Source: a virus
Reading direction: 5' to 3' (one strand)
IMG/VR virus record: IMGVR_UViG_3300037459_000160
Span: 1-64,000 of that record
Length of the DNA stretch: 64,000 nt
A model generated the notes under the pieces. It was not told the origin of the DNA, made no database searches, and saw only the letters and a program-made list of their open reading frames with translations. The position numbers and the translations under genes were made by a program. Shown here piece by piece: positions 23,469-28,652 of the stretch (its first letter is position 1; every line of letters begins with the position of its first letter).

Positions 23469-23504
23469 CATTGACAAGGGCAGTGTATGCCCTTAAGCTT
23501 TTGA

Positions 23505-23533
23505 TTGACTTTGACCTTTGACATTTGACCTTT
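23505..23533 (+). repeat. Tandem TTGAC(C/A)T heptamer-like repeats before the RBS
   Basis: TTGACT TTGACCT TTGACAT TTGACCT TTAGGAG. Confidence 0.7.
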
Positions 23534-23545
23534 AGGAGTAGGAAA

Positions 23546-23860
23546 ATGAGTAGTATAGGAATTCCCGAGTTTCCGAAATCGCCAGCCGAACGGCCGGGTT
23601 GGCAAACAACAGAATTTTGGCTTTCTCTTGTGGCAATCATTGTCGCATATCTGATTTCATCGGGTATTGCCCCCGTGGGCTCCGTGTGGGCTCAAGCATT
23701 GGCGACAGTGGCAACGATTCTCGCGGCCATCGGTTACCAAGCCTCGCGGGCGAGGGTTAAGAGTGCCCAAATTCAAGCCGCAGCGGCCCGTACGGTTGCC
23801 GTGCTGAATCGAACCGATATTCCTACTCCAATATACACCAACCCCGTGAGCCCGCTGTAA
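23546..23860 (+). CDS. Holin-like two-TM protein
   Basis: PGWQTTEFWL motif plus two hydrophobic helices and Y..SRARVK. Confidence 0.6.
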   Translation: MSSIGIPEFPKSPAERPGWQTTEFWLSLVAIIVAYLISSGIAPVGSVWAQALATVATILAAIGYQASRARVKSAQIQAAAARTVAVLNRTDIPTPIYTNPVSPL

Positions 23861-23907
23861 CGCACGCCCGTGAGCCCGCACGTACGCACATACGAGGTTA
23901 AGTTAAA

Positions 23908-24936
23908 ATGGATTTCCAACTTCCGCCTTTTATCGTTCACCGAAGATTAACAGCCCAAGCGATCGGCGAGGAGTTGCCTTATTCAATCGTTGATTACGGT
24001 CTTGACCAAATTTGGGATGAGACCGGAGCGGGTGAAGGGGTGCGGGTTGGGATTGCGGATACCGGATATCCAGAATTTCACGCGACGAAAGGCGACTTGG
24101 TGGGCGTGGGTGTTGACGCGAAAGATTTTACACGCTCACGGAGTGGGCCCCTAGATATTTCGGGTCACTCAACCCACGTATCGGGGATCATTGCGGCCCA
24201 ATTCCAAAACGGCCGAGGCATTGCGGGAGCGGCTCACAAATGCAAAATGTATTGGGCAAAGGTTCTTGGTGATAACGGTAGCGGTTCCGATCAAGGCGTT
24301 TCAAACGGTATAATTTGGCTTGTTGATCAAGGTTGCCATCTTATCAACTGTTCGCTCGGTTCGTCGTTTCCGAGTGAGAAAATCCGCGAAGCGTGTCAAT
24401 ATGCCAAATCAAAGGGCTCAATTGTTTTTGCAGCGGCGGGAAATAGCGGGGGCGGGCGAGATACGGTTGGATACCCTGCCCATTTCGATGAGCTTACGGA
24501 GGCGGTTGGGGCAATTGACGTTGACCAACTGCTCGCCGTTTTTTCTTCAACCGGTCTTTCAGTTGATGTGGTTGGGCCCGGTGTTCGTATCCCCTCTACG
24601 TACCTTGAGGATTATGCCGAGCTTTCGGGTACTTCAATGGCCACCCCTTGGATTACCGGTGTGTGTGCGAATCGGCTTTCCAATGAATTAAGGAATGGGG
24701 GGATTGTAACCAAAACCCTCGGCGACCTAACGGCCCTTTTGAAATTGACGATTAATGATTTGGGTAAGGCTGGCCGTGATCCTGAGTACGGTATGGGCGT
24801 GCCCAATGTACGCGAATTCGTGCGGGCCGGCCTCAATGGACATGATACCCCGGATGGGGAATGTGATGCGAGTTTTGTGGCTAACGTACACGGGCGAGAG
24901 GGGCGGTTTGTTTTCGTTCCCGATTCGGCCGCGTAG
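23908..24936 (+). CDS. Subtilisin-like serine protease (S8)
   Basis: IADTG, GHSTHVSGII, AAAGN, GTSMATP catalytic motifs; no obvious signal peptide. Confidence 0.92.
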   Translation: MDFQLPPFIVHRRLTAQAIGEELPYSIVDYGLDQIWDETGAGEGVRVGIADTGYPEFHATKGDLVGVGVDAKDFTRSRSGPLDISGHSTHVSGIIAAQFQNGRGIAGAAHKCKMYWAKVLGDNGSGSDQGVSNGIIWLVDQGCHLINCSLGSSFPSEKIREACQYAKSKGSIVFAAAGNSGGGRDTVGYPAHFDELTEAVGAIDVDQLLAVFSSTGLSVDVVGPGVRIPSTYLEDYAELSGTSMATPWITGVCANRLSNELRNGGIVTKTLGDLTALLKLTINDLGKAGRDPEYGMGVPNVREFVRAGLNGHDTPDGECDASFVANVHGREGRFVFVPDSAA

Positions 24937-24959
24937 AAGTAGAAGTAACGGAAAAGAAA

Positions 24960-26816
24960 ATGAAAAACCTATTTGCGGTTTTGCTTGCGGTTATGGTGTC
25001 GCAAGCTAACGCACAAGAAAAAATGCCAAAACCGTTACCGTTTGGCAAGCTGATTTCGATGCCAGACGATGCGGTGAGGTTTGCGATTGCAGACCTACAA
25101 ACACCCGTTGAGCGAGGCGGGGTTCCTGAATTGTATCGTACATCGACGCGATGGATTTGGGTTCGTGACGGTGACCACGAAACGATAAGGTTCTTAGCTC
25201 AAGCGGTAAATCTTGCACTTAGGCATTCATCACTTCCGCAACGCCCCCCCGTTGTGGGAGGTGGGTATTTGATGCGGATCGAAGGTCGTAACCTTTGTCC
25301 AAATTCAAAAGATTTGGAGCGATTTCTTAATGTTTGGGAACGGGGGCTTGGATTTAATTTCGATTATCCCGAGCCTTATTTTCATCAGTTTTACGATAAG
25401 GCTGAGGATGATGCGTTTATCGTCATTTCAGAAATCGCACAACTCAAGAGTGGTAAAAAAATCGTTGCAAGAATTCCAAGAGGTAGAACGATTCAGTTTC
25501 TCGGGCAGACGAGTGGAGATTGGATGTTCGTCGAATTCGAGGGAGAGAGCGGATGGATTCTCATATCAGCCATTCAAAAGGTCGAGAGCATTCAAGTTGT
25601 AAAATTTGCCGAACACATTGACCCCGCAATTGAGACGCTTAGGGAATTAACGGGCTCAACGGTACCGATAGTTGAGGCACGTTTTTTTATCGAAGTTGCT
25701 TTGTCAAGCGTTGATGGGGGGCAATACTACAATTTTCGAGGTATCGAGAAAAGTAGCGTTTGGAAAGGTGAAGTAGTGGTCAGTGCGTTGGACAAGTTTA
25801 TTGCTCGTGCGGGTGCCGACTTTGATTTACTTGAGAGTAAGGCGAATCGACTTGCTCAAATCAGTGATCAAACTGGAAAGTGGCGGCGTGTTAACGTATT
25901 GCATGGGGATTTACGCCGTCCAAATGACGGACCCCCTTATGTGTGGATCACATTTGACCAACGAGACAAACGGCGACGTGGCACGGAACACCCATTGCGT
26001 TCTTTGATATCTCTCAAATACGATGCGGTTGAAGTGATGATTCTCACAAGGCACGGGTGGGAGTGTGGACTTTTCAACGGTAACAACGTTGAAAAGGGAC
26101 AAGAGATTACAATTCACGAGCGTGCGGACGCTGCCCCCGATGACGTAACAAAAGATCACACGGTACCGGCACCGTATACGGCACGGCTCCAATCGTGTAT
26201 CTCGTGCGTTAGGTGTCATGGGCCGGATAGAGGCTTTAAGCCGTTACGCAATGAGCTTTTGGATTATCTCAAAAATCCAAGGGCCGCAAATATCGTACTT
26301 GACGTGGCCAGTGGTCGGGATTTGCACGAGACTCTTGATTTGATCGCAGGTTTGTATAGTTGGAATCCTGATATTGGGGAAAACAAAATTGCACCCCCCG
26401 ATAATCCTCTTGAAGTATCTCGCCGCTCATTAGGTCGGGAAGTTTTCCTAGCTACGGGGGGCCTTGATACTGAGGTTGCTTTCAAAGGAATTTCCGATTT
26501 ATACGGGGAACGCAAATTTACGCGGGTTACCCCTACAATGGTTTGTGCCGAGATTGGCGAACGCGTGGCACCCGAACAAGCGGCCGCAAGGCTTATTGAA
26601 TTGCTTGGCGAAAAGATAGGTTTTGAATCGCCAATCGTGAATCGTTTGCAACTTGGTCGCGATGTACTTCGTAGCGATCTTGATGCGGAACTTCCCGCTA
26701 TATTTTTTCGGGCTAAGGTGAAGAGAGCGGAAAAAGTACCTCAGAAAAAAGGAAATGACGATGGGCAAGAAAACGTTGATGGTAACGTTGATGCTATTGA
26801 TGCTCGTAACAACTGA
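24960..26816 (+). CDS. Exported protein with SH3-like insert and CxxCH heme-binding motif
   Basis: Signal peptide ending QANA; IARIPRG...GDWMFVEFEGESGWI SH3-like segment; SCISCVRCHG. Confidence 0.7.
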   Translation: MKNLFAVLLAVMVSQANAQEKMPKPLPFGKLISMPDDAVRFAIADLQTPVERGGVPELYRTSTRWIWVRDGDHETIRFLAQAVNLALRHSSLPQRPPVVGGGYLMRIEGRNLCPNSKDLERFLNVWERGLGFNFDYPEPYFHQFYDKAEDDAFIVISEIAQLKSGKKIVARIPRGRTIQFLGQTSGDWMFVEFEGESGWILISAIQKVESIQVVKFAEHIDPAIETLRELTGSTVPIVEARFFIEVALSSVDGGQYYNFRGIEKSSVWKGEVVVSALDKFIARAGADFDLLESKANRLAQISDQTGKWRRVNVLHGDLRRPNDGPPYVWITFDQRDKRRRGTEHPLRSLISLKYDAVEVMILTRHGWECGLFNGNNVEKGQEITIHERADAAPDDVTKDHTVPAPYTARLQSCISCVRCHGPDRGFKPLRNELLDYLKNPRAANIVLDVASGRDLHETLDLIAGLYSWNPDIGENKIAPPDNPLEVSRRSLGREVFLATGGLDTEVAFKGISDLYGERKFTRVTPTMVCAEIGERVAPEQAAARLIELLGEKIGFESPIVNRLQLGRDVLRSDLDAELPAIFFRAKVKRAEKVPQKKGNDDGQENVDGNVDAIDARNN

Positions 26817-27798
26817 TGCGTTTGCGAGCGGTTGGTGGTGGTCAAGAGCACCGAACGGGTTATACTGGAAGCGAACAAGTAGCGGTACGAGTACCAACGG
26901 GTGGTACTATTTGCGTTATCGTTCGTGCTCCCATCGGCGTTGTTCGTGTTCGTACTCATATCGGCAGATTATGAGAATTCCGTATGGCACGTATGGTACG
27001 TACGGAATGTCGTACGGCTCAAGCTACTCAAACGAAAGATGGCGTGAGCAAATGTTGGGCATTGCTTCTCAACAACTCAGAGCGAATCAACAAGCCGAGT
27101 CAAGAGTTGCTCAAAGTTTGGCGTTTCAACAGGAATGGCAAAAGATTTTCGGGGATAAGCCAATTCCGTTATCAGTGGGCTATCAATTCGGGGCCTACGG
27201 GAATAACGTGAACAATACGGGAACAACGTTTTTTGCAAATCAACAATTTGGGGCAAGGCAATATACGTCATCGAAACCCCTTGACGAGGCTCTCGTACTT
27301 CAACAGCTATATCGACTTGCGGAGTCAATCACCAAGACGAGTGCAAAGACCACTGAGGACTTCAAACAACTATCATCGCAGGTATTTGAGGAAAGACACC
27401 GTTTACAAGAAATTGAAGCGAAAGCGATTGCCTCGGTGAGAGTTTTGAAAGCGGCGGAATCAACGTATCGGGCGAGTTTACAAAAGGTGACGATTGAAAA
27501 GACGGCAAAGCTTGATCTTAATGCCGCCGTTGTGAGTATCTTCAAAACGTTTTGTATTAAGTGCCACACGCCGGGCAGCACAAGCAAGGGGTCAAAATAC
27601 CCGCTTGATACGCGGCTTGATGCTATTGGGGAATTTACATCTATAGAGCGATGGAAAATCGTTGCCTTAACCTCAACGGCTAAAATGCCGGAAGATGATC
27701 CTCTTAAACCAGTCGATGTCGGAATTTTATTTGAGTGGGCAGAGCAAGGCGACATTAAGCCCACTATTCAACCCGCCGTTCAACCTATTCAACCTTAG
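26761..27798 (+). CDS. Exported protein: Trp/Tyr/Cys-rich N-region, coiled coil, C-terminal c-type cytochrome domain (planctomycete-type)
   Basis: Signal peptide ending DAFA; IFKTFCIKCH...KMPEDDPL...LFEWAEQG (distal Met motif). Confidence 0.75.
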   Translation: MGKKTLMVTLMLLMLVTTDAFASGWWWSRAPNGLYWKRTSSGTSTNGWYYLRYRSCSHRRCSCSYSYRQIMRIPYGTYGTYGMSYGSSYSNERWREQMLGIASQQLRANQQAESRVAQSLAFQQEWQKIFGDKPIPLSVGYQFGAYGNNVNNTGTTFFANQQFGARQYTSSKPLDEALVLQQLYRLAESITKTSAKTTEDFKQLSSQVFEERHRLQEIEAKAIASVRVLKAAESTYRASLQKVTIEKTAKLDLNAAVVSIFKTFCIKCHTPGSTSKGSKYPLDTRLDAIGEFTSIERWKIVALTSTAKMPEDDPLKPVDVGILFEWAEQGDIKPTIQPAVQPIQP

Positions 27799-27836
27799 GA
27801 CTTGTTTGTTTTTTACTCAATTCGGAGGCATGTTCA

Positions 27837-28118
27837 ATGAAATGGTTTATCCTTGTTCTTGTTGTGTTTGCGATGTTTTGTGTGATGCCCGAACCGGCCG
27901 ACGCGGGCCAATGCCGAGTTCTCGGGGTGAGTCGTGGGGTCGGTATTCTTGGCCGCATTTCTCATAATCAGGCAGCCCGGCAGCAAGCGGCCATTAACGC
28001 GGCGATCCGGCAACAAATTCGACAGCAACAGCTTAACGCGTTGTTAGGGTTTGGAGGCCAGCCCGTTTTCTTGTCGCCCCCACCTTTTTTCCAGTTTGGT
28101 CTTAGCGGCCGATTGTGA
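27837..28118 (+). CDS. Small exported low-complexity peptide
   Basis: GGAGG RBS; signal peptide ending ADA; Gln/Ala/Arg- and Phe/Gly-rich mature part. Confidence 0.7.
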   Translation: MKWFILVLVVFAMFCVMPEPADAGQCRVLGVSRGVGILGRISHNQAARQQAAINAAIRQQIRQQQLNALLGFGGQPVFLSPPPFFQFGLSGRL

Positions 28119-28196
28119 CGGTAGGGAATTGCCCCCGGTTCGGGGGCGTTAAAATTTAACCCTGAAAATTTTAACCCATTCGAGAGGATTAAAATA

Positions 28197-28457
28197 ATGG
28201 GCGAAAAATTTGAAGTGGAGGTAATGAGACGCGGGCAGCGGTTGAGATTCCGCAAGCGGCGAGAACGACGAAATGCCCGACAACAACTTACCGAAATTGC
28301 CTTTGATGTTTATGAGGAGGGTGATGACGATGAGGAGTTGAGGGATAAAATCATTGAGAAACTTGAGGAACGCGGTTCGGGTGATTGGCTCGGAATTATG
28401 CTCAAGCTCTTGGAAGTGATTTTGCCCCTCTTACTTCGGCTCATGGTCGGAACCTAA
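28197..28457 (+). CDS. Small protein with C-terminal amphipathic helix
   Basis: GAGG RBS; DWLGIMLKLLEVILPLLLRLM. Confidence 0.65.
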   Translation: MGEKFEVEVMRRGQRLRFRKRRERRNARQQLTEIAFDVYEEGDDDEELRDKIIEKLEERGSGDWLGIMLKLLEVILPLLLRLMVGT

Positions 28458-28481: not shown

Positions 28482-28521
28482 GGCCCGTACGCGGTCTCGC
28501 CCCCGTGTGCGGGCCCCTTTT
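28482..28521 (+). terminator. Probable intrinsic terminator
   Basis: GGCCCGTACGCGG/CCGTGTGCGGGCC stem, then TTTT. Confidence 0.6.
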
Positions 28522-28538: not shown

Positions 28539-28652
28539 TCAAAAATAATTCCCTTTTTGGAAGGATTACTATTGACAACGTTTCTGGTTGCGATACGATA
28601 GGGCATGTACTGAGATTTTTAATTGTTAATCCCTAACTTTTGGAGTAACGCG

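What the first reader, a model, noticed from the sequence alone, without database searches (positions are those of the whole stretch)
23546..28457. Holin-like + subtilase + two exported c-type heme proteins + exported peptide: candidate undescribed phage envelope module
Seen: a compact six-gene block closed by a terminator. It holds a two-TM holin-like gene, an intact S8 subtilase with no signal peptide, a 618-aa exported CxxCH/SH3-like protein, an exported cytochrome c-domain protein, a small exported peptide and an amphipathic protein. No peptidoglycan hydrolase is recognisable anywhere in the window. Known: holins normally pair with muralytic endolysins. Inference: the subtilase may be a holin-released protease that attacks a proteinaceous envelope or S-layer, or it may mature the exported peptides. 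Either would be an unusual phage system.
Basis: partly seen in the sequence, partly recalled or inferred. Interest (0 to 1): 0.82.

Follow-up and report, generated by a model that had tools for sequence, protein, structure and literature searches.

The report
Phage protease plus exported haem-protein cassette
An uncultured 105-kb tailed phage carries a terminator-closed operon (small membrane protein, latent-looking subtilisin, two exported proteins with invariant haem-c sites, a secreted low-complexity peptide) that recurs in dozens of unrelated phages with interchangeable proteases; the near-complete genomes checked have no recognisable cell-wall hydrolase, so it is probably an undescribed way of breaching the host envelope.

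Summary
All six genes are real, on one strand, and end at a strong terminator. The subtilase is intact and has no signal peptide. g3, g4 and g5 each have one.

The conserved core is not holin plus subtilase. It is g3 (618 aa), g4 and g5, found in 25 of 26 non-redundant IMG/VR loci. The gene in front of g3 is a signal-less protease from interchangeable classes: matrixin in 7 loci, S8 in 5, papain-type in 1.

- g3 belongs to a large, mostly viral family with no Pfam or PDB relative. Its CxxCH is invariant, and its central domain weakly resembles cytochrome P460/c'-beta.
- g4 ends in a class-I (PSCyt1-like) cytochrome c domain with invariant CxxCH and Met-Pro.
- Together g3 and g4 are a split copy of a planctomycete two-haem protein, which itself sits beside caspase or M48 proteases.

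No peptidoglycan-hydrolase family was found in this contig (84% complete) or in five cassette-bearing phage genomes at least 93% complete.

My best reading, at 0.4, is an unconventional lysis or envelope-breaching cassette. Its function is untested.

This scan has noted the same cassette on other DNA, in at least 12 earlier notes. I found no paper describing it.

The parts
23471..23545 (+). Upstream control region: a TTGACA box at 23471 and a run of TTTGAC(C/A)T repeats at 23500-23535 before the AGGAG ribosome-binding site of g1.
   Evidence: Read directly from the sequence. The consensus scan gives a TTGACA at 23518. Promoter function is inferred.
23546..23860 (+). g1: a 104-aa membrane protein with two hydrophobic helices and a basic, hydrophilic C-terminal tail. 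It is a holin candidate by topology only.
   Evidence: Hydropathy. No Pfam or PHROG family apart from 8xMP at E 0.058. Only 3 unnamed homologues were found among 5.8 billion proteins. It is 35% identical to L031:1036-1647, which stands in front of an M10-g3-g4 set.
23908..24936 (+). g2: an intact S8 subtilase of 342 aa, with no signal peptide and no I9 prodomain. It has an N-terminal FQLPPF motif (nt 23914-23931) and catalytic D51 (24058-24060), H87 (24166-24168) and S243 (24634-24636).
   Evidence: Pfam PF00082 at 5.7e-41 and phrog_3677 at 6e-52. PDB matches: thermitase and subtilisins at 1e-41 to 1e-39, intracellular subtilisins at 2e-36. The triad and F3/L5/P6/P7 are invariant in five cassette-linked S8s.
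24960..26816 (+). g3: a 618-aa exported protein. It has a signal peptide, an N-terminal alpha/beta domain, an SH3b-type insert (residues 147-212, nt 25398-25595), a central beta domain with an invariant CxxCH (residues 416-420, nt 26205-26219) and a C-terminal helical domain.
   Evidence: 649 cluster representatives at E<1e-3. Invariant G254, Y256, S302, R309, E358, C416, C419, H420. No Pfam or PDB sequence match. AF2 pLDDT is 90.5, and 96.2 for the SH3-less homologue. The SH3b insert matches LytB 7pj3 at Z 10.2. The core's best PDB matches are cytochrome c' 8brk, P460 6hiu and c'-beta 7s5o at Z 5.0-5.2.
26755..27798 (+). g4: a 347-aa exported protein. It has a signal peptide, a Trp/Tyr/Cys-rich stretch, a Gln/Ala-rich helical region and a C-terminal class-I (PSCyt1-like) cytochrome c domain (about nt 27517-27759). 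CxxCH is at 27553-27567 and Met-Pro at 27685-27690. The start is either 26755 or 26761, and the gene overlaps the end of g3.
   Evidence: In the alignment of 26 homologues, C267, C270, H271, M311 and P312 are invariant. Cytochrome_CBB3 is found in 15 of 26 (best 1e-6) and PSCyt1 in 13 of 26 (best 8e-6). The window's own protein scores only E 0.07.
27837..28118 (+). g5: a 93-aa protein with a signal peptide followed by low-complexity Gln/Gly/Phe/Arg-rich sequence.
   Evidence: Positional counterparts (signal peptide plus G/F/N/Q/V/R-rich sequence, usually no lipobox) follow g4 in most related loci. No sequence family links them.
28131..28147 (+). A small G+C-rich hairpin (7-bp stem, 3-nt loop) between g5 and g6. 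It may be an internal attenuator or a processing site.
   Evidence: Read directly from the sequence. Function is inferred.
28197..28457 (+). g6: an 86-aa protein with a basic then acidic N-terminal part and a hydrophobic C-terminal helix ending in an ILPLLL motif (tail-anchor-like).
   Evidence: Hydropathy. Similar C-terminal (I/F)LPLLL tails occur beside the S8 gene in L004 3268-3639 and L020 4708-5091. No Pfam family at a meaningful E-value.
28482..28515 (+). An intrinsic terminator that closes the unit. The next promoter-like site is at 28572-28599.
   Evidence: 13-bp stem with 10 G-C pairs, followed by CCTTTTATTG.

Best explanation
This is an unconventional lysis or envelope-breaching cassette.

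Proposed sequence of events:
1. g3, g4 and g5 are exported through Sec. The host's cytochrome-c maturation machinery attaches one haem to g3 (in a P460/c'-beta-like beta domain) and one to g4 (in a class-I, His/Met domain).
2. The S8 protease accumulates in the cytoplasm in a latent state. It has no signal peptide and no I9 prodomain, and it carries a conserved N-terminal FxLPP plug-like motif.
3. At the end of infection the small membrane proteins (g1, perhaps g6) open the inner membrane.
4. The protease then reaches the envelope. There it cuts envelope proteins, the pre-positioned g3/g4/g5, or both.
5. The split two-haem protein acts as its envelope-side partner, as a redox or ligand trigger or as a targeting factor.

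What is shown:
- the gene content and the motifs;
- the conserved linkage;
- the exchangeability of the protease;
- the homology to a cellular two-haem protein that is itself protease-linked;
- the absence of recognisable muralytic enzymes.

What is inferred:
- export and haem attachment;
- latency of the protease and its release;
- the substrates;
- any role in lysis.
For: 1. g3-g4-g5 recur in the same order in 25 of 26 non-redundant IMG/VR loci, on contigs of 8 to 408 kb.

2. The slot in front of g3 holds proteases of at least three unrelated catalytic types. They are M10 with intact HExxHxxGxxH in 7 loci, S8 in 5 plus this window, and C1 in 1. Of the 13 protease-slot enzymes whose N-termini were inspected, all but one (L033) lack a signal peptide; L011's S8 was not inspected.

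3. Both protease types look like zymogens.
- The M10s have PG_binding_1-type propeptides and Cys-switch-like RxCGxxD motifs.
- The S8s share invariant F3-x-L5-P6-P7 at the position where intracellular subtilisins carry the inhibitory LIPY/F pro-peptide.

4. No muralytic family was found in this contig or in five cassette-bearing records that are 93-100% complete (83, 104, 408, 354 and 79 kb).
- Families searched: Phage_lysozyme, Amidase_2, SLT, M23, NlpC/P60, Amidase_3, M15_4, GH25, CHAP and M15_3.
- The same tool found the S8 genes.

5. Some g3 family members carry cell-wall-type SH3b or CAP domains.

6. In L031 a g1 homologue precedes M10-g3-g4, the same order as here.

7. In Planctomycetota genomes the fused form (PSCyt1 plus g3 core) sits beside WD40-caspase or M48 proteases.
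- hhalign to g3: 99.2% probability, E 2e-19.
- So the haem-protein/protease pairing is older than the phage cassette.
Against: - No haem protein has a known role in phage lysis.
- g1 matches no holin family and has a homologue in only one related locus.
- Small non-signal-peptide membrane ORFs are only 1.7-fold denser near the cassette than elsewhere in the loci, with Fisher p = 0.18.
- Six of 26 loci show no protease nearby, and four have an unknown 160-aa protein in the protease slot.
- In this phage the cassette lies between glycan-modification genes and nuclease/replication genes, not after the tail genes.
- Absence of Pfam muralytic domains does not exclude a novel muralytic enzyme. That enzyme could be g3 itself.
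- This record is only 84% complete.
- The host is unknown. Planctomycetes, the suspected host group, do possess peptidoglycan according to the literature (my own knowledge, not tested here).
Confidence: 0.4

Rival explanations
1. An envelope sensing or remodelling module that is not itself the lysis device. The exported split two-haem protein senses a redox state or small ligand in the periplasm. Together with the protease it reshapes envelope proteins. The purpose could be superinfection exclusion, receptor removal, blocking a host envelope-stress or cell-death response, or timing of late events.
For: Cellular homologues are single two-haem proteins located next to caspase or M48 proteases, a layout typical of signal-to-proteolysis systems. 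The haem domain weakly resembles the gas-binding cytochromes P460/c'-beta. The cassette's position in the genome varies and here lies outside the late structural block.
Against: It does not explain why the protease lacks a signal peptide while its partners are exported. It also does not explain why complete cassette-bearing genomes have no recognisable muralytic enzyme.
Confidence: 0.28
2. g3 is itself a new kind of exported wall-degrading enzyme, and g4 and g5 are its helpers. The protease only activates it by cutting it once the membrane is opened. The cassette is then a secreted-endolysin system with a protease trigger.
For: g3 is the most conserved part. It has invariant polar residues besides CxxCH (Y256, S302, R309, E358, R571). 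Some members carry SH3b domains of the type seen in LytB and phage endolysins. Any protease class would be able to cut a linker. No other muralytic enzyme is present.
Against: There is no fold or sequence similarity to any glycosidase, amidase or peptidase. The only fold hint is to haem proteins. The cellular fused homologues are ordinary chromosomal genes, not autolysin-like.
Confidence: 0.12
3. A periplasmic redox auxiliary metabolic module. It would be a catalytic P460/c'-beta-like haem protein with a class-I cytochrome c as its electron partner, for example for NO or hydroxylamine handling. The protease would be only a neighbour or a maturation factor.
For: There are two haem-c proteins of complementary types. 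The top three PDB fold matches of the g3 core all belong to the P460/c'-beta family.
Against: The fold match is weak (Z about 5). The tight and repeated linkage to exchangeable proteases and to a low-complexity peptide is unexplained. The g3 core is about three times the size of a P460 protein.
Confidence: 0.1
4. A peptide or protein maturation system of RiPP or matrix type. g5 and the Tyr/Trp-rich part of g4 would be substrates, cut by the protease and cross-linked or modified by the haem enzyme.
For: The small proteins after g4 are hypervariable and low-complexity. Leader-peptidase-like exchange of protease classes is typical of peptide-maturation clusters (my own knowledge). g4 has aromatic and Cys-rich N-terminal stretches.
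Against: g5 has an ordinary Sec signal peptide, not a leader peptide. The protease and the substrates would be in different compartments. The radical SAM gene upstream is not part of the conserved core.
Confidence: 0.07

Closest known systems
Canonical holin-endolysin-spanin lysis cassettes of tailed phages
   Same: A compact, terminator-closed operon. It has a small two-helix membrane protein at the front, a signal-less hydrolase directly behind it, and exported envelope proteins after that. No other lysis genes are recognisable in the genome.
   Different: The hydrolase is a general protease (S8 here; M10 or C1 in other phages), not a muralytic enzyme. The exported proteins are two haem-c proteins and a low-complexity peptide, not spanins. 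No holin family matches g1.
Cellular two-haem proteins of Planctomycetota (signal peptide + PSCyt1 PF07635 + unnamed core, about 600 aa; about 810 aa with C-terminal DUF4384)
   Same: The g3 family aligns over almost its whole length with residues 134-571 of such a protein, with the CxxCH in register (hhalign 99.2%, E 2e-19). g4 carries the PSCyt1-type domain. The cellular genes also sit beside proteases: WD40-caspase and M48.
   Different: In phages the two haem domains are on two separate proteins. The PSCyt1-like domain is at the C-terminus of g4, behind an aromatic/Cys-rich and helical region. The phage proteases are of other families. The cellular family is itself uncharacterised.
Intracellular subtilisin proteases (ISPs) of Bacillus and Planococcus (PDB 2x8j, 2wv7, 7xr8; PMC6220982)
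   Same: S8 catalytic domain with no signal peptide and no I9 prodomain. A short N-terminal extension carries a conserved hydrophobic-Pro-aromatic motif at residues 3-8. PDB similarity is E 2e-36, and for 7xr8 the alignment starts at residue 5.
   Different: The motif is FxLPP[FWI], not [LVI]-[IFLV]-P-[YFH]. Secreted subtilisins and thermitase score slightly better than ISPs. Inhibition by the extension is untested.
Cytochrome P460 / cytochrome c'-beta (PDB 6hiu, 7s5o, 8brk)
   Same: A beta-sheet domain followed by a helix that carries a single CxxCH. These are the three best of 48,161 PDB chains for the g3 core, and an ESM Atlas structural neighbour also carries Cytochrome_P460.
   Different: Z is only 5.0-5.2. 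There is no sequence similarity. g3 has additional N-terminal and C-terminal domains of about 300 residues. The Lys cross-link and the distal pocket were not examined.
proMMP-type (matrixin, PF00413) zymogens with PG_binding_1 propeptide and cysteine switch
   Same: In 7 sister loci this type fills the same slot as the S8. It has HExxHxxGxxH and Cys-switch-like motifs, which indicates a latent protease.
   Different: Not present in this window, where an S8 takes the place.

Membership tests
Peptidase S8 (subtilase), for g2 | Asp-His-Ser triad in D-H-S order plus the oxyanion Asn, and a match to PF00082 | tested here: met
   PF00082 at E 5.7e-41, full-length match 1-288. D51, H87, N179 and S243 are present and invariant in five relatives.
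Intracellular subtilisin proteases (ISP), for g2 | N-terminal pro-peptide motif [LVI]-[IFLV]-P-[YFH] at about residues 6-9 (PMC6220982) | tested here: not met
   The window has L5-P6-P7-F8, so position 2 is Pro. Relatives have LPPF, LPPI, LPPW or LPPD. The placement is similar but the motif is not the same. I therefore do not file g2 as an ISP; I say only that it may work like one.
Intracellular subtilisin proteases (ISP), for g2 | No signal peptide and no I9 prodomain | tested here: met
   No hydrophobic N-terminus. Pfam finds only the S8 domain, which begins at residue 42.
Class-I c-type cytochrome / PSCyt1 (PF07635), for the C-terminal domain of g4 | CxxCH plus a distal Met ligand about 40 residues later, and a match to a cytochrome-c clan model | tested here: met
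   C267, C270, H271, M311 and P312 are invariant in 26 homologues. Cytochrome_CBB3 is found in 15 of 26 and PSCyt1 in 13 of 26 members. The window's own copy scores only E 0.07, so membership rests on the family.
c-type cytochromes, for g3 and g4 | Covalently bound haem | not testable with these tools
   This needs haem staining or mass spectrometry of the expressed protein.
Cytochrome P460 / c'-beta, for the central domain of g3 | Beta-sheet haem domain with a C-terminal CxxCH, and fold similarity | tested here: inconclusive
   VIA-align Z is 5.2 (8brk, 106 aligned residues, rmsd 3.9), 5.1 (6hiu) and 5.0 (7s5o). These are the top three of 48,161 chains. Foldseek gives nothing. An ESM Atlas neighbour has TM 0.51.
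Bacterial SH3 (SH3b) cell-wall-binding domains, for the insert in g3 | SH3b fold, and a match to SH3_3 or SH3_4 | tested here: met
   LytB 7pj3 at Z 10.2 (rmsd 1.5, 61 residues), phiSM101 endolysin 4krt at Z 8.8. The Pfam scores are below the cut-offs (19.9 and 19.2 bits). Binding to a wall was not tested.
Holins, for g1 | Small membrane protein with at least one transmembrane helix and a charged C-terminus, encoded next to the lytic enzyme | tested here: met
   104 aa, two hydrophobic helices and a basic tail, directly upstream of the S8.
Holins, for g1 | Homology to a described holin family, or demonstrated hole formation | tested here: inconclusive
   No Pfam or PHROG holin family at E<=0.1. 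There are 3 unnamed homologues. Hole formation cannot be tested here.
Canonical phage lysis cassette | A muralytic endolysin (glycosidase, amidase or peptidoglycan endopeptidase) | tested here: not met
   None among about 150 ORFs of the contig. None in six-frame searches with 10 informative families, in this contig or in five near-complete relatives.
Cellular PSCyt1 + core two-haem protein family, for g3 plus g4 | Homology of the core over its whole length, with the second CxxCH in register | tested here: met
   hhalign of A5 against the L051 594-aa ORF: probability 99.2%, E 2e-19, 396 columns. PSCyt1 lies at the N-terminus of the cellular proteins.

The most novel reading that the evidence does not exclude
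A widespread group of uncultured phages, jumbo phages included, lyse their hosts without any peptidoglycan hydrolase. A latent cytoplasmic protease of any catalytic class is released into the envelope. There it works with a phage-made, host-matured two-haem protein that serves as the trigger or the targeting factor. This would be a fourth kind of lysis effector beside endolysins, single-gene lysis proteins and spanin/disruptin systems. It would also be the first functional role for c-type cytochromes in a virus of bacteria.
Probability: 0.3. Interest if true: 0.92.

Novelty: categorically new. Interest (0 to 1): 0.74.

Why it matters
Phage lysis is thought to need a muralytic enzyme, or an inhibitor of wall synthesis in small phages. 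Here a conserved cassette with no muralytic part sits in phages of 79 to 408 kb that show no such enzyme. Its two constant proteins need the host's haem-attachment machinery.

If the cassette breaches the envelope, three things follow:
- it reveals a new lysis strategy;
- it gives a handle on the envelope of poorly studied hosts, probably Planctomycetota or similar;
- it gives a first functional clue for a large family of unstudied bacterial two-haem proteins that are wired to proteases.

Even if it is not lytic, it is an undescribed phage-host interface that is abundant in metagenomes.

Tried and rejected
- Close DNA or protein relatives among 50,697 cultured or deposited phages: none for the block. 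TerL is at most 25% identical.
- Single-protein scan for S8 relatives in IMG/VR: nothing.
- PDB by sequence for the g3 family: no match.
- Foldseek of both models against PDB and BFVD: only the SH3 insert matched, nothing for the core.
- Much longer fused forms of g3 (1321-3770 aa): none, which is weak evidence. The longest members carry only a CAP fusion.
- Host assignment through GTDB genomes: only 4 full-length hits, in MAGs of four different phyla. These are most likely binned phage contigs, so there is no host call.
- Complementarity test on TerL relatives that lack the cassette: the relatives are fragments (11-73% complete), so the test is uninformative.
- Enrichment of small membrane ORFs near the cassette: not significant.
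- g5 as an outer-membrane lipoprotein (o-spanin): rejected as a general reading, because most counterparts have AxA-type signal peptides and no lipobox.
- GH19 and GH108 searches are uninformative, because the control genomes gave no hit either.
- The upstream radical SAM, methyltransferase and glycosyltransferase genes as part of the cassette: rejected. They are syntenic only in L008.

Full report
**What the window is**

The window is the first 64 kb of a single 104,668-bp IMG/VR virus record. The record is linear and 84% complete by CheckV. All genes lie on the + strand. It is a tailed phage with a large terminase, portal, capsid-like protein and tape measure. It has no close relative among deposited phages.

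**The observation**

- **g1** (23546-23860) is a 104-aa protein with two hydrophobic helices and a basic tail. It follows an AGGAG site and a run of TTTGAC repeats.
- **g2** (23908-24936) is a full-length S8 subtilase: PF00082 at 5.7e-41, with D51/H87/N179/S243. It has no signal peptide and no I9 prodomain.
- **g3** (24960-26816), **g4** (26755-27798) and **g5** (27837-28118) all begin with signal peptides. g3 and g4 each hold exactly one CxxCH.
- **g6** (28197-28457) has a charged N-terminal part and a hydrophobic C-terminal helix.
- A terminator with a 13-bp stem closes the unit at 28482-28515, and a new promoter-like site follows.

**The constant core is g3-g4-g5**

g3 is not an orphan. An exhaustive HMMER search found 649 cluster representatives at E<1e-3. 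In alignments of 66 and 100 members the CxxCH is invariant, as are G254, Y256, S302, R309 and E358. No Pfam model and no PDB sequence matches the family.

A profile scan of IMG/VR returned 30 loci, 26 of them non-redundant.
- In 24 loci a BLAST-clustered homologue of g4 follows g3. In one more (L030) a g4-like protein is recognisable by its motifs.
- After g4 there is usually a small protein with a signal peptide and low-complexity G/F/N/Q/V/R-rich sequence. This is the counterpart of g5.

**The protease is exchangeable**

- S8 subtilases stand in front of g3 in L004, L011, L020, L026 and L033.
- Matrixins (PF00413, intact HExxHxxGxxH) stand there in L008, L009, L013, L018, L019, L024 and L031. 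Two have PG_binding_1 propeptides and several have Cys-switch-like motifs.
- L030 has a papain-type C1 protease.
- L017 has a CAP protein in the slot and an S8-like gene three genes downstream.
- Four loci, including two jumbo phages, have an unknown 160-aa protein in the slot.
- Six loci show no protease, and two are cut by the contig end.
- Of the 13 protease-slot enzymes whose N-termini I inspected, only the L033 enzyme has a hydrophobic N-terminus. L011's S8 was not inspected.

Repeated replacement by unrelated, signal-less, zymogen-like proteases is the strongest sign that proteolysis is part of the cassette's job.

The five cassette-linked S8s share an invariant F-x-L-P-P at residues 3-7. 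Intracellular subtilisins carry their inhibitory LIPY/F pro-peptide at the same position (PMC6220982). The strict ISP motif is not met, so this is a functional analogy and not membership.

**What the haem proteins are**

*g4.* Its family has invariant C267, C270, H271, M311 and P312. In 15 of 26 members it matches Cytochrome_CBB3, and in 13 of 26 it matches PSCyt1. It is therefore a class-I, His/Met cytochrome c domain. The domain sits at the end of a protein whose mature N-terminus is rich in Trp, Tyr and Cys, and whose middle is Gln/Ala-rich and helical.

*g3.* It models with high confidence: pLDDT 90.5, and 96.2 for an SH3-less homologue.
- The insert at residues 147-212 is a bacterial-type SH3 domain. 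It is closest to those of LytB and a clostridial phage endolysin, at Z 10.2 and 8.8.
- The core has no Foldseek match in PDB or BFVD.
- In an all-against-all structural search, the three best of 48,161 chains are cytochrome c' of Thermus, cytochrome P460 and cytochrome c'-beta. Z is 5.0-5.2, over the stretch that carries the CxxCH.
- The ESM Atlas independently lists a Cytochrome_P460 cluster among the structural neighbours.
- This evidence is weak but coherent.

**Relation to cellular proteins**

Earlier follow-ups of this scan claimed that the phage pair is a split copy of a bacterial two-haem protein. I tested this claim.

- Seven of 301 Planctomycetota genomes hold cellular matches, in ORFs of about 600 or 810 aa with two CxxCH motifs.
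- The first motif lies in a PSCyt1 domain. The longer form ends in DUF4384.
- The g3 profile aligns with residues 134-571 of a 594-aa ORF at 99.2% probability and E 2e-19, with the CxxCH in register.
- In two of the five cellular loci examined the neighbours include WD40-caspase proteins, and one of them also has an M48 peptidase.

So the link between this haem protein and a protease exists in cells too.

Full-length g3 genes are rare in cellular genomes. There are four, in MAGs of four different phyla, probably binned phage contigs. Atlas clusters of the family are mostly viral.

**Is there an endolysin elsewhere?**

Pfam scans of about 150 ORFs covering the whole contig found no muralytic domain. 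Six-frame searches with ten informative families found nothing in this contig, and nothing in five cassette-bearing records that are 93-100% complete.

- The families were Phage_lysozyme, Amidase_2, SLT, M23, NlpC/P60, Amidase_3, M15_4, GH25, CHAP and M15_3.
- The five records include phages of 354 and 408 kb.
- The same tool found the S8 genes, which serves as a positive control.
- The GH19 and GH108 searches were uninformative.

**Weighing the readings**

The pattern fits a lysis or envelope-breaching device best. A latent signal-less hydrolase stands behind a small membrane protein. Its partners are exported in advance. No other lytic enzyme is recognisable. I put this reading at 0.4.

I hold it loosely for several reasons.
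- g1 has no holin homology and recurs only in L031.
- Membrane ORFs are not significantly enriched near the cassette.
- The cassette's position in the genome varies.
- Nothing explains mechanistically why two haems are needed.

The alternatives are:
- a sensor-protease remodelling module (0.28);
- g3 as a new protease-activated wall enzyme (0.12);
- a redox auxiliary module (0.10);
- a peptide-maturation system (0.07).

**Novelty**

I found no paper that mentions PSCyt1 together with phages, or that describes such a cassette. Within this scan the same cassette was noted on many other genomes.

This report adds four things:
- the endolysin-absence test on near-complete genomes;
- the P460/c'-beta fold hint;
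- the FxLPP motif of the S8 versions;
- an independent confirmation of the split-protein relation and of the protease neighbours in cells.

Noticed in passing
window:18769-23468: Directly upstream lies a run of genes for a sulfotransferase-like protein, a methyltransferase, a radical SAM protein, two GT2-type glycosyltransferases and an unknown 284-aa protein. The radical SAM gene, one glycosyltransferase, the 284-aa gene and (weakly) the methyltransferase are syntenic in L008, ahead of its M10-g3-g4 set. The run may modify glycans of the host envelope or the virion.
   Followed up: partly
window:23500-23535: Four to five tandem TTTGAC(C/A)T-like repeats lie immediately before the ribosome-binding site of g1. 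They may be an operator or a binding site for a phage regulator.
   Followed up: no
window:43550-48169: The 1539-aa head-associated protein matches head-morphogenesis (Mu F-like) and head-maturation-protease PHROGs. The Pfam scan of the window's ORFs also reported an ADP-ribosyltransferase exoenzyme domain and an LPD29 domain. These probably belong to this polyvalent protein, but I did not locate them.
   Followed up: no
window, ORFs not located (alignment A4): The window also encodes a Tad5-type Thoeris inhibitor (E 6e-20), a CsrA homologue (2e-26), HicB- and TacA-like antitoxin domains, a NUDIX protein and a PAS-domain protein.
   Followed up: no
L005:9299-9784, L006:9270-9791, L007:9229-9717, L014:9287-9787: In four large phages of 146-408 kb the protease slot before g3 is filled by a conserved 160-170-aa protein with no Pfam match. 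It could be an unrecognised protease or another kind of partner.
   Followed up: partly
L004:3268-3639, L020:4708-5091, window:28197-28457: Small proteins with a hydrophobic C-terminal tail bearing an (I/F)LPLLL motif accompany the S8 versions of the cassette, on either side of the protease gene. They could be membrane anchors, antiholin-like regulators or protease inhibitors.
   Followed up: partly
L056:9949-13473, L057:1046-4096, L057:4800-6731: In Planctomycetota chromosomes the fused two-haem homologue sits beside WD40-caspase proteins of 1000-1170 aa and an M48-TPR peptidase. This is an unstudied cellular haem-protein/protease cluster.
   Followed up: partly
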